A stretch of DNA of 64,000 nucleotides from an uncultured delta proteobacterium (GCA_963775425.1 CAVZJB010000016.1:1-64000); one strand, 5' to 3'; counted from the stretch's first letter, positions 18,333-22,876 are shown. Numbers and translations: made by a program. The notes: generated from the sequence alone by a model not told the origin.

Positions 18333-19562
18333 TCAGGGAGCGCGGCGCTGCACCGTGATCTCGGCGTCCACCGCGTGGCCGTCGACGTCGTGCGTGCTGA
18401 ACCACGCGAGGTACTCGACGCCGTCGAGGTCGACGTGCATGAGCTCGTCGTGCAACGTGTCCGTCGCGGACAGGGCCTTGGCGAGCGCCGCGGGGGGCTC
18501 GTCGCTCGCGTTCGAGACGTCGTAGACCGCCCGCAGCAGATCGGAGCCGCCGCCGGCCACCGCGCGCACGGCGAGGATGTGCACGTTGCCGGAGAGGTCG
18601 ACGGCGACGGAGCGGACGACGCTGCCGTCGTCGGCGACGACGCCGGGGCCGTCGAGGTCGACGCTCGCGTGGCTCACGAGGTCCGTGATGTTCGGGTGGA
18701 CGCCGTTGATGCCGCCCGCCCAGGCCGCGCCGCCGTCGCGCGCGACGGAGATGCCGGTGGTGATGAGGCGGCCGCCGATGGGATCGAGGGCGCTCCACGC
18801 GGCCGTCGCCGAGGGCAGCGCCGCGTGCACCAGGTCGTCGGAGGGGTTGGAGGCGAGCGCGTGTAGGCCGCCCGCGCCGGAGGCGACCGAGGCGTCGCCG
18901 TCGATGCCGAAGTCGACCTCCTGCGTCCACGCGGCGCCGTCGAAGGCGCTCGCGACAATCTCGCAGTTGCTGCCGAAGTCGCCGCGGGCCACGTAGTAGC
19001 GATCGCCGAGCACCGCGAGCACCGCGGAGTTCGCCCGCGCGGGCCCGGGCACGCCGTCGTCCCACACGCCGCTGTGCCGCGTAATGACGAGGAGGCTTCC
19101 GTCGTCGACGAGCGCGACGGGATCGCCCTCGCCGTCGATGGCGAGCGACACCGGCGTCGGCGTGCCCGCGCCGGAACGCGCGCGCGCGATCTCTGTGTGG
19201 AAGTCGCCGGTCGCGTGGAGCTCCACGTAGTCGAGCTCGCTCGAGCTGTCGTCGAACAGGACGTCGACGAGGGCGGCGACGCCGTCGTCGGCGCTCGCGA
19301 AGACGGCGACGAGCGGCACGGCGCCCGCCGCGAGCGGCAGCGTGACCGTGTCGGCGCCGCCTTCGCCTTCGCCCTCGCCCTCGCCTTCGCCTTCGCCCTC
19401 GCCCTCGCCCACCTGGCAGCGCCCGGCGACGCACGTGGGGAGCGCGGCCGGGCAGTTGTCGTCGCGGCGGCAGAGCACGTTCCTGCCGCTGAAGTCGCAG
19501 CCGCCGGCGAGGACGGCGAAGATCGAGAGGCCTGCGAGGAGCAAGCGCGCTTCGGCGTTCAT
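18333..19562 (-). CDS. Hypothetical lipoprotein with Cys motif, (GE)n linker and probable beta-propeller
   Basis: LAGGC lipobox, CRRDDNC..C...C, GEGEGE tract, beta-rich remainder. Confidence 0.7.
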   Translation of the reverse strand: MNAEARLLLAGLSIFAVLAGGCDFSGRNVLCRRDDNCPAALPTCVAGRCQVGEGEGEGEGEGEGEGEGGADTVTLPLAAGAVPLVAVFASADDGVAALVDVLFDDSSSELDYVELHATGDFHTEIARARSGAGTPTPVSLAIDGEGDPVALVDDGSLLVITRHSGVWDDGVPGPARANSAVLAVLGDRYYVARGDFGSNCEIVASAFDGAAWTQEVDFGIDGDASVASGAGGLHALASNPSDDLVHAALPSATAAWSALDPIGGRLITTGISVARDGGAAWAGGINGVHPNITDLVSHASVDLDGPGVVADDGSVVRSVAVDLSGNVHILAVRAVAGGGSDLLRAVYDVSNASDEPPAALAKALSATDTLHDELMHVDLDGVEYLAWFSTHDVDGHAVDAEITVQRRAP

Positions 19563-19698: not shown

Positions 19699-19917
19699 GT
19701 AGGGCGTCCCCTTGTGGGGCGCGTCGAGGGGCGCGGCCCCGTCCACGGCGGGTGTTTCCGACGCGGGGGGGCAAGCCCCCGCCCGACGAACCGCGCTGCG
19801 AAACGACGACGGCATTGCGGCCGGCGCGTAGGGCGCCCCCTCGTGGGGCGCGTCGGGGGGACCGGCACGTTCGATGGCGCCGGGTCACTCCGATGCGGTG
19901 GCAAGCCCCCGCCCTAC
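19699..19917. repeat. Two REPIN-like pairs of GTAG-family REPs
   Basis: GTAGGGCG(T/C)CCCCT(T/C)GTGGGGCGC at 19699 and 19828, each followed by an inverted GGCAAGCCCCCGCCC(G/T)AC. Confidence 0.8.
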
Positions 19918-19979
19918 GGGTCCTCGATCGTGGCCGACGTCGCGAAGAGCGCACCCGGTGTGACGACTTTTCAAACGGC

Positions 19980-20028
19980 TGAGCAACCCGGGACATAGGT
20001 GACGTTTCAGACCGGAGACATAGGTGAC
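19980..20028. mobile_element. Isolated IS481-family-like terminal sequence
   Basis: TGAGCAACCCGGGACATAGGTGAC...CCGGAGACATAGGTGAC: two GACATAGGTGAC copies 25 bp apart, resembling IS481 ends; no transposase nearby. Confidence 0.6.
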
Positions 20029-20201
20029 GGGTGATGGGCGACGCGAGAGAGATCGAGGAGACGAGGAACGAGGAACGAAGAACACGAGGTGCGCTGAAGC
20101 GACATCGACTCGGACGCTCGGCCGGCGGCCAGCGGATCGCGGCCGGCGGAGATCGGACCTCGACGCGCGGCGAGGCCGAGCCCCGCCGCGCGCGCCGAGC
20201 C

Positions 20202-20534
20202 TCAGCGAAACTTGTAGAGCATGGCGCAGAAGTGGTCGCAGCGGTCCTGGCCGACGTCGCGCTCCGCGGCGGTGACGGCCTCGCTCAGGAACCCGATGTC
20301 GAGGATGGCGCTCACCTCGCGCGCGCTCCCGGCGGCGATGTCGAAGTACCGCGCGCGCTCCTTCGCCGACTGCTTGCGACAGCCCTCGGAGAAATTGAGC
20401 GTGATGGATGACGACGCGCGGCGCAGTTGGTCCTTGAGGTCCGCGAAGCCCGGCGGAAACTGCTTCGCGAGCTGGAAGCACTGGCCGTAGATCTCCAGCG
20501 ACTTCCCGTAGAGGCGAGTGTCTCGGTAGTCCAT
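20202..20534 (-). CDS. Four helix bundle protein (23S rRNA IVP / Avd-like family)
   Basis: LKDQLRRASSSITLNFSEG, RARYFDIAAGSARE motifs; GAAGGAGGA RBS. Confidence 0.92.
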   Translation of the reverse strand: MDYRDTRLYGKSLEIYGQCFQLAKQFPPGFADLKDQLRRASSSITLNFSEGCRKQSAKERARYFDIAAGSAREVSAILDIGFLSEAVTAAERDVGQDRCDHFCAMLYKFR

Positions 20535-20638
20535 GTTCAATCCTCCTTCGAAGGCCGAGCACGGCGGCCTTCAAAGCCTGCGTGGCCGCCGCGCGCAGGC
20601 CGAGAAGGAGGACGAACATGGCCTCGGGGTCACTCGCC
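20513..20638 (-). promoter_or_regulatory. Structured 5' leader pairing over the RBS/start of the left four-helix gene
   Basis: 20531-20549 pairs with 20604-20621; 20513-20520 pairs with 20631-20638; two internal hairpins. Confidence 0.7.
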
Positions 20639-20681
20639 GTTTCAGGAAGTGCTGTCGGTCGTAGGCCGGTTCTCGACGAGA

Positions 20682-20817
20682 GAGTGCTCGCGCTTCATGG
20701 CCTGGCCCGTGTGGTCTTCGCGAACCCCGACGTGGGGCCCTCAAGCGCTTCGCGCTTTTGACGAGGGCCCCACGTCGGGGATCCGCAAGGAGACCAGGCC
20801 ATGAAGCACGAGCACTC
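20682..20817 (+). promoter_or_regulatory. Structured 5' leader pairing over the start of the right four-helix gene
   Basis: 20682-20705 vs 20794-20817 is a 23/24 inverted repeat; inner perfect 18-bp stem 20725-20742/20763-20780. Confidence 0.75.
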
Positions 20818-21133
20818 CCGCATCTACCTCACCTCGCGCGCGCTCAACCGCGAGGCTGCCGCGCTCGCCAACCGGCTGCCGCGTGGCTTCAGCAACCTGA
20901 AGGACCAGCTTCGCCGCGCGTCGGCCTCGGTGACGTTGAACTTCTGCGAGGGGAGCCGGCACGAGTCGCTCGCGGAGCGTGGGCGCTACTTCCGGATCGC
21001 GTCCGGGAGCGCCGCCGAGGTGAGCGCCATCGCGGATGTCGCGGAGGACTTCGGCGTCATCGCTCCCGAGCAGCACGCGGCCATCAAGGACTACTGCAAT
21101 CACCTGTGCGCGATGCTGCGGCTGTACCGGTGA
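20801..21133 (+). CDS. Four helix bundle protein (23S rRNA IVP / Avd-like family)
   Basis: LKDQLRRASASVTLNFCEG, RGRYFRIASGSAAE motifs; AAGGAG RBS; paralogue of 20202-20534. Confidence 0.92.
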   Translation: MKHEHSRIYLTSRALNREAAALANRLPRGFSNLKDQLRRASASVTLNFCEGSRHESLAERGRYFRIASGSAAEVSAIADVAEDFGVIAPEQHAAIKDYCNHLCAMLRLYR

Positions 21134-21336
21134 TGGCCGCTCGGCGGCGGAGCTCTGCGGAGCTTCGCCGCTCTCTCGATCGGGAAGGGCGACGCGAGAG
21201 ATGCGGGAGGGGTCGAGGGCCCGACAGAACGAGGACACGAGGGACACGAGGGCGGCCCGGATCGGATCCGCGGCCGGCGGCAAGCGGCTCGCGGCCGGCG
21301 GAGATCGGAGCGAGATCGCCCCCAGGCTCAACGGGT

Positions 21337-21640
21337 TCGAGACGCGCGCCCGGGTGTGACGATTTGCGAACCGCGGTGCGTAGGGCGGGGGCTTGTCCCC
21401 CCGCATCCCCACGCGCGCCCGCCGACGGAAAAGGCGGGGGACGAGCCCCCGCCCTACGGGTCGTCGACGTAGCCGACGTCGCGAATGGCTCGAAACGCGC
21501 GCCCGGGTGTGACGATTTGCGAACCGCGGTGCGTAGGGCGGGGGCTTGTCCCCCGCATCCCCACGTGCGCCCGCCGACGGAAAGGCGGGGGACGAGCCCC
21601 CGCCCTACGGGTCCTCGATCGTGGCCGCCGTCGCGGATGG
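21337..21640. repeat. Two tandem ~153-bp units, each containing a REP pair, abutting the tRNA 3' end
   Basis: Units start at 21337 and 21490; GTAGGGCGGGGGCTTGTCCCCC...GGGGGACGAGCCCCCGCCCTAC in each; partial third copy at about 19900-19975. Confidence 0.9.
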
Positions 21641-21714
21641 CGCGCCCGGCGCGACTCGAACGCGCGACCCCCGGTTTAGGAAACCGATGCTCTGTCCAGC
21701 TGAGCTACGGGCGC
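21638..21714 (-). tRNA. tRNA-Arg(CCT)
   Basis: Reverse complement GCGCCCGTAGCTCAGCTGGACAGAGCATCGGTTTCCTAAACCGGGGGTCGCGCGTTCGAGTCGCGCCGGGCGCGCCA; cloverleaf, anticodon CCT, encoded CCA. Confidence 0.96.
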
Positions 21715-21763
21715 AGAGGCGCCTGTTTGCCACGGCGCGCCGCGGGGGGAAAGAGGGCTCGGC

Positions 21764-22876
21764 TCATGCGTGGGCGCACGACCAGCGGACGAGATCGAGG
21801 GCGCTGACGATGCCGACGACGTGGCGCTCCGCGTTGATCACCGGGAGGCGGTGGATGCCCTCGTAGGCGAGCAGGCGGGCGGCGTCGTCGATGGAGGTGT
21901 CCTCGTAGACCACGAACGGCGCGTGCATCATCAGGCCGCCGACGTCGATCTTGTCGAGGTCGGCGTGGCGCGCGAGCGCCTGCACGAGGTCCGTCTGGGA
22001 GATGACGCCCACCGGTGCGCCGTCGTCGTCGATGACGGGGACGCCGCGGACGCCGCCCTCGGCGAGGATGCCGACGAGGCGGCTGGCGGGGACGTCGCGG
22101 CTCACGCAGTGGACGTCGCGGGTCATCACGTCGCCGACGCGGGCGGCGGCGGCGGTCTCCTCGATGTTGCAATGCAACCCGCCGCGCCGGTCGATGTCCT
22201 CGAAGAAGCGGCAGGAGGTGCAGGTGTGCTCGACGTCCACCGTGCACCTCCGCGGGCAGTCGGCGTACACGCGCGTGCGCGAGCCGCCGGCGCCGTGGGT
22301 GCGCACCACGCCGAGCCTGCGCGCGCGGGGCGGGGGCACCTCGAGGAGCCCGGTGTCCAGCGGCCGCGCGGCCGCCGCTTCGAGCAGGCGCACGGCGAGC
22401 GCGTGCCGCTCGTCCTGATCGAGGAGCAGCCGCGCGGTGGGCAACATGACGTCGTCCTCGAAGCGCAGGGCTCGCTCCGCCTCGCGGGTGAGCGCCGACA
22501 CCGCCTCCTGCCACACGTCGGCGTCCACGGCGGCGCCGCGGGCGAGCTCGTCGATCAGGGGCGTGAGCGCCGACGCCGCCCGCTCGAGGGCCGCGTGGCC
22601 GCGCTCGGTGGACGACAGCGCGCCGTCCAGCCAGCTCCCGCGCCGCCCGCGCAGGGAGGGGACGACAAGCCCCCCCTCGTCGGCGAGGTGGTCTCTCAGG
22701 GGGCCCCCGAGGAAGGCCCGCAGGAGCCGGGCGTCGTCGGGGCGGGCGTGGCCCTCCGCGTCGACGATGCCGTGGGCCCAGCCCACCACGTCGCGGATGG
22801 CGTCGTGGAAGTCCTGGAGATGATCGAGCGGGTCGATCATGTCGTCGAGGCGCGGAAGGGTAAGCTCGGTGCGCAT
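21764..22876 (-). CDS. Hemerythrin-like + Cys cluster + CBS pair protein
   Basis: HLADE, H..LE and FEDDVMLP in the N-terminal part; VGDVMTRDV, GVISQTDL, IHRLPV, GIVSALD CBS motifs. Confidence 0.8.
   Translation of the reverse strand: MRTELTLPRLDDMIDPLDHLQDFHDAIRDVVGWAHGIVDAEGHARPDDARLLRAFLGGPLRDHLADEGGLVVPSLRGRRGSWLDGALSSTERGHAALERAASALTPLIDELARGAAVDADVWQEAVSALTREAERALRFEDDVMLPTARLLLDQDERHALAVRLLEAAAARPLDTGLLEVPPPRARRLGVVRTHGAGGSRTRVYADCPRRCTVDVEHTCTSCRFFEDIDRRGGLHCNIEETAAAARVGDVMTRDVHCVSRDVPASRLVGILAEGGVRGVPVIDDDGAPVGVISQTDLVQALARHADLDKIDVGGLMMHAPFVVYEDTSIDDAARLLAYEGIHRLPVINAERHVVGIVSALDLVRWSCAHA

What the first reader, a model, noticed from the sequence alone, without database searches (positions are those of the whole stretch)
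20513..20817. Both four-helix-bundle genes carry an upstream antisense copy of their own translation start
Seen: for the right gene, 20682-20705 (GAGTGCTCGCGCTTCATGGCCTGG) is a 23/24 inverted copy of 20794-20817, covering the ATG and first codons. It encloses a perfect 18-bp stem capped by an AAGCGC-TTC-GCGCTT hairpin; TGGTCTT (20712-20718) could alternatively pair with the RBS region. For the left gene, RBS+ATG (20531-20549) pair with 20604-20621, pairing resumes in the CDS (20513-20520 with 20631-20638), and two hairpins make a three-way junction. The two leaders differ in sequence but keep the same design. Known: this family includes the 23S rRNA intervening-sequence protein, encoded inside an RNase III-excised stem, and the RNA-binding DGR protein Avd. 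Inference: a selected translational lock or processing signal, possibly bound by the protein itself, defining an RNA+protein module I do not recognise as described.
Basis: partly seen in the sequence, partly recalled or inferred. Interest (0 to 1): 0.82.

Follow-up and report, generated by a model that had tools for sequence, protein, structure and literature searches.

The report
Start-burying hairpins before four-helix-bundle genes
Two small back-to-back genes of a widespread, unexplained family each sit behind a long, nearly perfect hairpin that buries their ribosome-binding site and start codon; relatives in several bacterial phyla keep this design while the sequence changes, so it is probably a built-in expression lock or processing site.

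Summary
Both PF05635/TIGR02436 genes (20202-20534 minus, 20801-21133 plus) have a fold-back whose 3' arm carries the ribosome-binding site, the ATG and the first codons (RNA folds -97.5 and -116.2 kcal/mol, z -8.3 and -9.3).

It is not chance. Among 384 strong-SD gene starts in this genome, only the 10 PF05635 genes reach this score.

It is a clade trait. 35 of 41 distinct leaders of the close subfamily have it, as do 23 of 106 other PF05635 leaders. Carriers include MAG records labelled Myxococcota, Bdellovibrionales-type, Holophagales, Solibacter and Pseudomonadota. Compensatory changes keep the stem paired.

The constant part is a 60-130-nt near-perfect hairpin with the Shine-Dalgarno at the base of its 3' arm. 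It occurs only beside these genes. It mostly replaces the ORF-enclosing stem of the IVS-type cassettes that this scan reported earlier on other DNA.

The pairing across the ATG here probably descends from a head-to-head twin-gene palindrome, a common form in this family.

An RNA-level lock or RNase III site is the best reading but is unproven. There is no RNA data, no promoter call and no G-U strand bias. The proposed three-way junction and protein binding are unsupported.

The pair lies in a ~1.8-kb multicopy unit beside tRNA-Arg.

The parts
20202..20534 (-). Left four-helix-bundle gene (110 aa, ATG 20534-20532, SD GGAGGA 6 nt upstream)
   Evidence: PF05635 E 8.3e-19; TIGR02436 E 8.5e-19; ORF listed
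20801..21133 (+). Right four-helix-bundle gene (110 aa), about 46% identical to the left one
   Evidence: PF05635 E 5.5e-18; TIGR02436 E 6.9e-17; tblastn 46%
20675..20824 (+). Right leader fold-back. The outer arms are 20675-20705 / 20794-20824; the 3' arm holds the ATG and codons 1-8. The SD 20789-20794 pairs with 20706-20720.
20725..20780 (+). Inner perfect 18-bp stem with a small apical hairpin (AAGCGC-TTC-GCGCTT)
   Evidence: I11
20501..20650 (-). Left leader fold-back. The 3' arm (20501-20569 on the + axis) holds SD, ATG and codons 1-11. The 5' arm is 20584-20650.
20604..20650 (+). Mirror copy of the left gene's SD, ATG and first codons. It is out of frame after 4 nt and opens a 47-codon ORF (20618-20761) with no family match.
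   Evidence: sequence
20675..20705 (-). Mirror copy of the right gene's start (reads MKREHS..., stops after 18 codons)
20033..20157 (+). Segment X, copy 1: heptamer-like (ACGAGGA)n run plus a GGCCGGCGG-rich stretch. It is a direct repeat of 21184-21309.
   Evidence: D9/D18; 76.7% over 129 nt; similar to the arms of the enclosing stem in G004 (orientation ambiguous)
21184..21309 (+). Segment X, copy 2
19787..21640 (.). Multicopy unit that carries the gene pair; 87-99% identical copies or deletion derivatives lie on six other contigs
21334..21640 (+). Two ~152-bp tandem repeats that contain copies of the tRNA-Arg 3' end (tRNA-tail array)
   Evidence: D3/D10
21638..21714 (-). tRNA-Arg(CCT); the unit starts at its 3' end
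19897..19964 (+). Direct repeat (85%) of 21588-21655, which includes the tRNA 3' end. Together they bracket the unit like att-type repeats.
   Evidence: D4

Best explanation
Each gene is preceded by a leader fold-back typical of its family. The core is a near-perfect hairpin of 60-130 nt whose 3' arm carries the Shine-Dalgarno sequence at its base. In this genome the pairing continues across the ATG and the first 8-11 codons.

I read the core as an RNA element. These genes have no recognisable promoter of their own. In head-to-head relatives the 73-87 nt between the two start codons is entirely palindrome, so an SD-containing mRNA most likely starts upstream of or inside the hairpin. A transcript that enters from upstream has its ribosome-binding site locked in a duplex of about -80 to -116 kcal/mol. 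A double-strand-specific nuclease would cut the stem, detach the mRNA from the upstream RNA and free the ribosome-binding site. RNase III is the candidate, because it was shown to excise the 23S rRNA intervening sequences that carry this same protein family.

The leader fold-back is a second topology of that IVS-type cassette: the arms are side by side upstream of the ORF instead of around it.

The antisense copy of the gene's own start codon and first codons is probably inherited from a head-to-head twin-gene palindrome whose partner copy was truncated. It adds stability to the lock.

Shown: the structure, its significance, its conservation with compensatory change, its exclusivity to the family, and its anticorrelation with the enclosing stem. 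Inferred: action in RNA, cleavage by RNase III and the unlocking of translation.
For: The structure is real and extreme.

It is specific. 0 of 374 other SD-bearing ORF starts in this genome score 34 or more, against 10 of 10 PF05635 starts. 2 of 77 control windows (inside the genes or 500 nt upstream) reach z 3.4 or more. The hairpins occur only beside PF05635 genes in G000 and in G082.

It is conserved. 35 of 41 distinct leaders of the close subfamily have z 3.5 or more (12 of 16 clusters), as do 23 of 106 other PF05635 leaders (16 of 75 clusters).

The sequences differ completely, from GC-rich arms to A/T-run arms, yet the SD always sits at the base of the 3' arm.

There is compensatory change. 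In A2, 7 of 27 pairs changed on both sides, 95.9% of cells are paired, 0 of 500 shuffles reach this, and slid controls pair 35-43%. In A3 (G000 left leader against G004), 10 of 41 pairs changed on both sides.

The AUG is fully paired only when the 5' arm is present.

The two architectures are alternatives: leader+/enclosing+ 3, +/- 41, -/+ 34, -/- 45 of 123 genes. In G004 the hairpin lies inside an enclosing stem.

RNase III cleaves the 28-bp stem of the Coxiella IVS that holds S23p (PMC4990558, passages read).
Against: No transcript evidence could be obtained, so whether the 5' arm is transcribed is unknown.

The stems are almost pure Watson-Crick pairs. Across 18 non-head-to-head clusters there are 742 WC pairs, 22 G-U-type and 29 A-C-type mismatches (p 0.40). 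In A2 there is 1 U-G against 6 C-A/A-C cells. Hairpin energies on the sense and antisense strands differ in both directions. A sense-strand RNA under selection should tolerate G-U pairs; this pattern fits a DNA palindrome or arm-to-arm homogenisation equally well.

No sigma-70-like promoter was found upstream of the arms, though that scan is weak for this phylum.

In the enclosing class the best-aligned 5' arm often ends 20-70 nt before the ATG (5-arm end -3 to -213), so sequestering the SD is not a family-wide rule.

Relatives are kin and are not independent.
Confidence: 0.45

Rival explanations
1. The feature is a DNA-level palindrome. The fold-back would be a recombination, replication or duplication structure of a mobile cassette: a hairpin site read in single-stranded DNA (as integron attC sites are), or a quasipalindrome that seeds fold-back inverted duplications and is kept perfect by arm-to-arm repair. 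The SD lies in the arm only because the cassette boundary abuts the gene.
For: The arms are near-perfect Watson-Crick with no G-U bias. Head-to-head twin genes around one palindrome are common. The genes are multicopy in many genomes. Here they ride in a ~1.8-kb repeat bracketed by tRNA-tail direct repeats. Deletion derivatives have microhomology junctions inside the hairpin.
Against: No recombinase lies within about 3 kb. No solo hairpins occur without the gene. The SD is consistently placed at the stem base, even in singletons and convergent pairs. The enclosing stems of the sister class have loops of 400 nt or more, which cannot extrude from duplex DNA but do fold in RNA.
Confidence: 0.28
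2. The feature is a neutral vestige. The antisense start copies would simply be what remains of truncated inverted duplicates of each gene and would have no present role.
For: The left mirror copy is about 70-80% matched and frame-shifted. In singletons of other lineages the mirror of the coding part is decayed, for example 12-13 transversion mismatches in L139/L140. In true divergent pairs the mirror is just the partner gene.
Against: The core hairpin stays near-perfect across lineages whose proteins are only 35-60% identical, and it does so by compensatory change. The right mirror copy is 23 of 24. A neutral remnant would not stay specific to one gene family genome-wide.
Confidence: 0.12
3. 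The feature is a symmetric promoter or operator. The palindrome would be a compact bidirectional control region, transcripts would start inside it, and the RNA would never contain both arms.
For: It sits between divergent genes here and in many relatives. It is symmetric, so one element could serve both strands.
Against: There are no -35/-10-like hexamers in the window or in two AT-rich loci of relative G082 (L099, L101). Arms of 20-30 bp are far longer than operator half-sites. Singleton and convergent genes keep the hairpin with nothing to drive on the other side.
Confidence: 0.1

Closest known systems
ORF-bearing 23S rRNA intervening sequences (Coxiella burnetii, Leptospira; S23p cargo)
   Same: The protein family is the same (PF05635). 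A long near-perfect stem lies next to the ORF. The IVS has no promoter of its own. RNase III cleavage of the stem was shown for the Coxiella IVS (PMC4990558, passages read).
   Different: In an IVS the two arms enclose the ORF and the element sits in helix 45 of 23S rRNA. Here both arms lie upstream, the 3' arm holds the SD and ATG, and the locus lies between a protein gene and a tRNA gene. This genome's 23S rRNA gene is 2964 nt against a 2925-position model, which leaves no room for an ORF-bearing insertion.
IVS-type stem-enclosed four-helix-bundle cassettes with 6-7-base repeat arms
   Same: The gene family is the same, short tandem repeats flank the gene, and the cassettes are multicopy. 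37 of 123 relatives tested here have that build. G004 has both the enclosing stem and the leader hairpin.
   Different: In this window the flanking repeat segments are direct, not inverted. No enclosing stem exists (z -0.2 to -0.6). The leader fold-back takes its place.
RNase III-processed leaders that unmask a ribosome-binding site (lambda N, T7 early mRNAs, E. coli adhE; recalled, not read here)
   Same: A long stem contains the translation start, and cleavage would free it.
   Different: Cleavage and activation are not shown here. The stems here are much longer and nearly perfect.
Integron attC sites (recalled)
   Same: They are 60-140-nt imperfect palindromes that lie just upstream of the next promoter-less cassette ORF and can influence its translation.
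   Different: No integrase is nearby, the attC core motifs were not examined, and the arms here are near-perfect.
Avd of diversity-generating retroelements
   Same: Same Pfam family; a small four-helix bundle. The closest solved relative by sequence is the X. campestris protein 2GSC, described as a homopentamer in PMC4990558.
   Different: No reverse transcriptase domain was found in the four large neighbouring ORFs scanned within about 4.5 kb; template and variable repeats were not sought specifically.

Membership tests
PF05635 / TIGR02436 four-helix-bundle protein | Profile match above the curated cut-off | tested here: met
   68.2 and 65.6 bits against a cut-off of 33.8; 67.8 and 61.7 bits against 24
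PF05635 / TIGR02436 four-helix-bundle protein | Sequence relation to a solved pentameric four-helix bundle | tested here: met
   Subfamily profile A1 hits 2GSC at E 3.4e-14. No fold was predicted here.
ORF-bearing 23S rRNA IVS | Inserted in a 23S rRNA helix | tested here: not met
   The locus lies between a 523-aa ORF and tRNA-Arg. The only 23S gene found is on contig C3. None of 188 fetched loci matches the rRNA region.
ORF-bearing 23S rRNA IVS | Terminal inverted repeats that enclose the ORF | tested here: not met
   Upstream 300 nt against downstream 300 nt gives z -0.2 to -0.6 for the G000 genes. One 17-nt match between codons 4-8 and 21199-21215 (I24) was not tested for significance.
ORF-bearing 23S rRNA IVS | Excision by RNase III | not testable with these tools
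   No RNA runs were listed
IVS-type stem-enclosed cassette (scan class) | Complementary 6-7-base repeat arrays on both sides of the gene | tested here: not met
   Here the repeat-bearing segments 20033-20157 and 21184-21309 are direct repeats (D9/D18). The feature is met in 37 of 123 relatives.
DGR accessory protein Avd | Adjacent reverse transcriptase with template and variable repeats | tested here: not met
   Neighbouring ORFs carry annexin/PG-binding, no-family, hemerythrin-CBS and LPMO domains. TR/VR repeats were not sought specifically.
Intrinsic terminator | GC-rich stem followed by a U-tract | tested here: not met
   0 terminator-like sites in 19700-21800. Some AT-rich relatives do have A-run/hairpin/T-run forms.
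Any Rfam family | Covariance-model match at the gathering score | tested here: not met
   Only the tRNA passes. The hairpin gives a sub-threshold chance hit to a miRNA model (30.3 against 62 bits).
Integron attC | Integrase nearby; R/L core sites with extrahelical bases | not tested
   No recombinase domain was found in the four large neighbouring ORFs scanned. The attC motifs were not examined.

The most novel reading that the evidence does not exclude
PF05635 genes, including the rRNA IVS proteins, are the cargo of one very widespread class of promoter-less, self-releasing RNA cassettes. These cassettes come in two interchangeable topologies: a stem around the ORF, or a fold-back in front of it. 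Both are cut by RNase III out of whatever host transcript reads through them. In the fold-back type translation is strictly conditional on that cut, and the nucleic-acid-binding pentamer may feed back on its own stem.
Probability: 0.27. Interest if true: 0.8.

Novelty: new variant of a known kind. Interest (0 to 1): 0.58.

Why it matters
PF05635/TIGR02436 is a very common family of small proteins. Only Avd has an assigned role; the rRNA IVS proteins have none. A cis-element that is conserved, family-specific and maintained by compensatory change gives the first concrete handle on how these genes are expressed. It links the free-standing copies mechanistically to the RNase III-excised rRNA insertions. 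It is directly testable with transcript-end mapping, an rnc mutant and stem or compensatory mutants. It also gives annotators a signature for a selfish-looking cassette class that breaks assemblies and sits in operons and tRNA-tail arrays.

Tried and rejected
- RNA evidence: no RNA holder was listed for 20000-21400. Only three DNA metagenome runs held small shares, and none was laid.
- Promoter and terminator scans of the window and of two AT-rich relatives found nothing above shuffles.
- Rfam: no family matched. PADLOC: no match.
- A genome scan for exact 12-nt anti-SD arms did not recover even the PF05635 hairpins, because they have bulges near the SD. I discarded it and replaced it with the score-based control.
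- Sense against antisense folding energies and wobble counts were meant to separate RNA from DNA. The result was inconclusive, leaning slightly against a sense-RNA bias.
- An ungapped profile of arm identity along divergent pairs was uninformative for three loci because of one-codon offsets.
- I tried to orient segment X relative to the enclosing arms of G004. It is ambiguous because X is itself quasi-palindromic, so my reconstruction of two cassettes fused head to head with loss of the inner arms stays speculation.
- tRNA adjacency is not a family trait: 9 of 188 loci carry a tRNA, and 5 of those are copies from G000.
- No fetched locus lies in 23S rRNA.
- No solo hairpins were found without the gene.
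- Literature: 'rRNA intervening sequence protein', PF05635, TIGR02436 and 'S23 ribosomal protein' gave 4 papers (3 listed). An IVS/RNase III/S23p search gave 39. A TAACTGA/heptamer search gave 100, and PMC4679880 has no mention of IVS or four-helix proteins. None of the listings or passages I saw describes a leader fold-back of these genes. Supplements were not seen.

Full report
WHAT IS THERE. The window is the first 64 kb of contig C16 of an 8.26-Mb genome with about 72% G+C. Earlier notes of this scan place the genome in an uncultured branch of Myxococcota. Two 110-codon genes lie head to head: 20202-20534 on the minus strand and 20801-21133 on the plus strand. Both match PF05635 (23S_rRNA_IVP; E 8.3e-19 and 5.5e-18) and TIGR02436 'four helix bundle protein'. 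They are about 46% identical to each other. A profile of their subfamily hits the solved X. campestris protein 2GSC at E 3.4e-14. Of the four large neighbouring ORFs scanned, three carry unrelated domains (annexin/peptidoglycan-binding, hemerythrin-CBS, LPMO) and the 523-aa one has no family match. No reverse transcriptase or recombinase domain was found in them.

THE OBSERVATION. The right outer arms match at 23 of 24, the inner stem at 18 of 18, the apical hairpin at 6 of 6 and TGGTCTT at 6 of 7. On the left, 20513-20 pairs with 20631-38 at 8 of 8, and the SD+ATG arms match apart from a one-base length difference and one adjacent mismatch. The repeat finder extends the right arms to 31 nt. 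As RNA the right leader folds at -116.2 kcal/mol (z -9.27) and the left at -97.5 (z -8.30); none of 200 shuffles does as well in either case. In the full leaders the AUG is paired with probability 1.00. Transcripts that lack the 5' arm partly free it, with about 0.1-1.0 unpaired per base. The proposed three-way junction on the left is not the predicted fold; the MFE and the centroid are one long hairpin.

MORE THAN CHANCE, AND SPECIFIC TO THE FAMILY. I scored complementarity between the start region (-30 to +35) and the 170-300 nt upstream with a local alignment and dinucleotide shuffles.
- In this genome, 384 distinct ORF starts have a strong SD. The 374 non-PF05635 starts score a mean of 17.3 (sd 3.5, max 33), while the 10 PF05635 genes score 41-46.
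- Control windows inside the genes or 500 nt upstream reached z 3.4 or more in 2 of 77 cases.
- The two hairpins occur nowhere else in the genome except beside copies or remnants of these genes. The same holds for the palindrome of a distant relative, G082: all 8 places lie next to PF05635 matches.

CONSERVATION. PF05635 was found in 70 of 301 sampled genomes of the phylum at E up to 1e-8. Matches of 110 bits or more to a profile of the close subfamily (A1) came from 11 of 401 genomes. I added 15 fetched regions and 79 loci from a scan of species genomes, which gave 147 distinct leaders in 91 sequence clusters. Before counting I dropped HMM hits that start beyond model position 12, hits with under 200 nt upstream or with N, and leaders identical from -100 to +45. 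For example, 135 hits in the first 109 loci gave 86 leaders.
- In the close subfamily, 35 of 41 leaders (12 of 16 clusters) have z 3.5 or more. The exceptions include two evidently decayed copies (no intact start or an in-frame stop), a third without any fold-back (L106), and one lineage (G017) with only a short SD/anti-SD stem.
- Among other PF05635 genes, 23 of 106 leaders (16 of 75 clusters) reach that score.
- By record label, positives include MAGs called Myxococcota or Myxococcales, Bdellovibrionales-type (UBA2409, Silvanigrella), Holophagales, Solibacter and Pseudomonadota.

The folds show one constant: a near-perfect hairpin of 60-130 nt with the SD at the base of its 3' arm. Arm sequences range from GC-rich to A-run/T-run forms. 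In many lineages the stem ends 4-8 nt before the ATG. In G000, in G004 and in head-to-head pairs the pairing runs on to +20 or +35.

Two alignments of homologous hairpins show compensatory change.
- In A2 (three genomes, two paralogues, 9 sequences), 7 of 27 pairs changed on both sides and 95.9% of cells are paired. No shuffle of 500 reaches this, and slid controls pair 35-43%.
- In A3 (G000 left leader against four G004 copies), 10 of 41 pairs changed on both sides, including the spacer between SD and ATG. A3 is in effect one divergence between two lineages.

WHERE THE ANTISENSE START COPY COMES FROM. In G082, G077, L129, L131, L133 and L151 two paralogues lie head to head with only 73-87 nt between their ATGs (measured for L129, L131, L133 and L151). 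That interval is a single palindrome flanked by the two SDs, so each gene's 'anti-start' is simply the partner's start. In this window each gene instead has a truncated mirror of its own start. The right mirror is 23 of 24 and reads MKREHS before stopping after 18 codons. The left mirror is about 70-80% matched, shifts frame after four bases and opens a 47-codon ORF with no family match. In singletons of other lineages the mirror of the coding part is visibly decayed while the core stem stays perfect. I therefore separate two layers. The core hairpin with the SD is the maintained element. The extension over the ATG and first codons is most simply a leftover of a twin-gene palindrome, although it does add pairing.

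RELATION TO THE CASSETTES THIS SCAN FOUND BEFORE. Earlier notes on other genomes describe PF05635 genes enclosed by two complementary arrays of 6-7-base repeats, built like the rRNA intervening sequences. I tested this by comparing the 300 nt upstream with the 300 nt downstream for 123 genes with enough flank; 24 of the 147 were dropped. 37 genes have an enclosing stem at z 5 or more, with hexamer or heptamer arms in the examples I read. The two builds are largely alternatives: leader and enclosing together 3, leader only 41, enclosing only 34, neither 45. Relatives are kin, so this is not a formal test. The G000 genes have no enclosing stem (z -0.2 to -0.6). G004, the closest relative, has both, with the leader hairpin inside the enclosing stem. 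Short repeat runs and a GGCCGGCGG-rich segment X flank the pair here, but as direct repeats (20033-20157 and 21184-21309). X resembles the G004 arms, though its orientation is ambiguous.

GENOMIC SETTING. The pair sits in a unit of roughly 1.8 kb (19787-21640) that recurs on contigs C10, C13, C18, C6 and C2 at 91-99% identity. Some of these copies are deletion derivatives: C2 and one C13 copy lack the left gene, and C6 lacks 99 nt of the right gene. An 87-97% identical derivative on C11 lacks both genes. All junctions show at most a few bases of microhomology. Three copies abut the 3' end of different tRNA-Arg genes (CCT here, TCT, ACG). The unit is bracketed by an 85% direct repeat that includes the tRNA 3' end and contains two 152-bp tail repeats. 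tRNA adjacency is not general in the family (9 of 188 loci), and no fetched locus lies in 23S rRNA.

MECHANISM. The best-supported reading is an RNA leader that locks the ribosome-binding site until a double-strand-specific nuclease cuts the stem.
- For it: the position of the SD in the stem is kept relative to the gene in every arrangement. In head-to-head relatives there is no room for a promoter between the hairpin and the SD. The sister architecture has loops of 400 nt or more, which can fold only in single strands. RNase III was shown to cut the 28-bp stem of the Coxiella IVS that carries a protein of this family (PMC4990558, passages read).
- Against it: no RNA run was available and no promoter was predicted. 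The stems are almost pure Watson-Crick, with no excess of G-U over A-C mismatches: 22 against 29 in 18 independent non-mirrored clusters (p 0.40), and 1 against 6 in A2. That pattern is what a DNA palindrome kept perfect by arm-to-arm repair would give. A requirement for a perfect RNase III duplex would give the same.

I put the RNA lock and processing model at 0.45, a DNA-level palindrome at 0.28, a functionless vestige at 0.12 and a symmetric promoter or operator at 0.10. Binding by the protein itself is untested.

NOVELTY. SD-sequestering leaders, RNase III-unmasked starts and stem-closed IVS elements are all known kinds. What I could not find in Rfam or in the papers searched is a conserved, family-specific leader fold-back of PF05635 genes, or the fact that it alternates with the enclosing stem. 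I could see only listings and passages, not supplements. This scan had already met the enclosing form on other DNA, but not this form. I class it as a new variant of a known kind.

Noticed in passing
window 19787-21640; G000 contigs C10, C13, C18, C6, C2, C11: The gene pair is part of a ~1.8-kb dispersed repeat (87-99% identity). Several deletion derivatives exist, with junctions of at most a few bases of microhomology. No recombinase gene lies inside the unit.
   Followed up: partly
window 21334-21714 and 19897-19964: Two 152-bp tandem repeats carry copies of the tRNA-Arg(CCT) 3' end. An 85% direct repeat of the tRNA tail lies on the far side of the unit. Three copies of the unit abut three different tRNA-Arg genes. 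This looks like an integrase-less passenger in a tRNA-tail array.
   Followed up: partly
related loci, e.g. L099 430-510 and 1340-1400; L016, L037, L034, L115, L139/L140, L171; window 20040-20085 and 21229-21252: Short tandem arrays of 6-7-base units flank PF05635 genes in many lineages, for example CCGATNN, TTTCGAC, CCGGTT and ACGAGGA. In the leader-hairpin class the two flanking arrays are direct repeats in the two cases examined (this window and L099). In the enclosing class they are complementary.
   Followed up: partly
genomes G040, G082, G064, G098, G194, G197: PF05635 genes very often come as paralogue pairs, divergent in some genomes and convergent in others. They are highly multicopy in some genomes: 35 matches in G040 and 159 first-look candidates in G134. 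Whether the two paralogues co-assemble was not tested.
   Followed up: no
window 20618-20761 (+): A 47-codon ORF with a strong mirrored SD spans both hairpins. It has no Pfam match. It is probably an artefact of the mirror copy, but it is conserved in all copies of the unit.
   Followed up: partly
window 19358-19410 and hundreds of sites genome-wide: A hexanucleotide repeat (GGCGAG-type) that encodes Gly-Glu runs in the 523-aa ORF recurs in very many loci of the genome.
   Followed up: no
G000 C6:58150-58577 (L011): A diverged copy (83%) of the right gene has an in-frame stop and keeps only half of the inner hairpin. It is a decaying cassette.
   Followed up: partly
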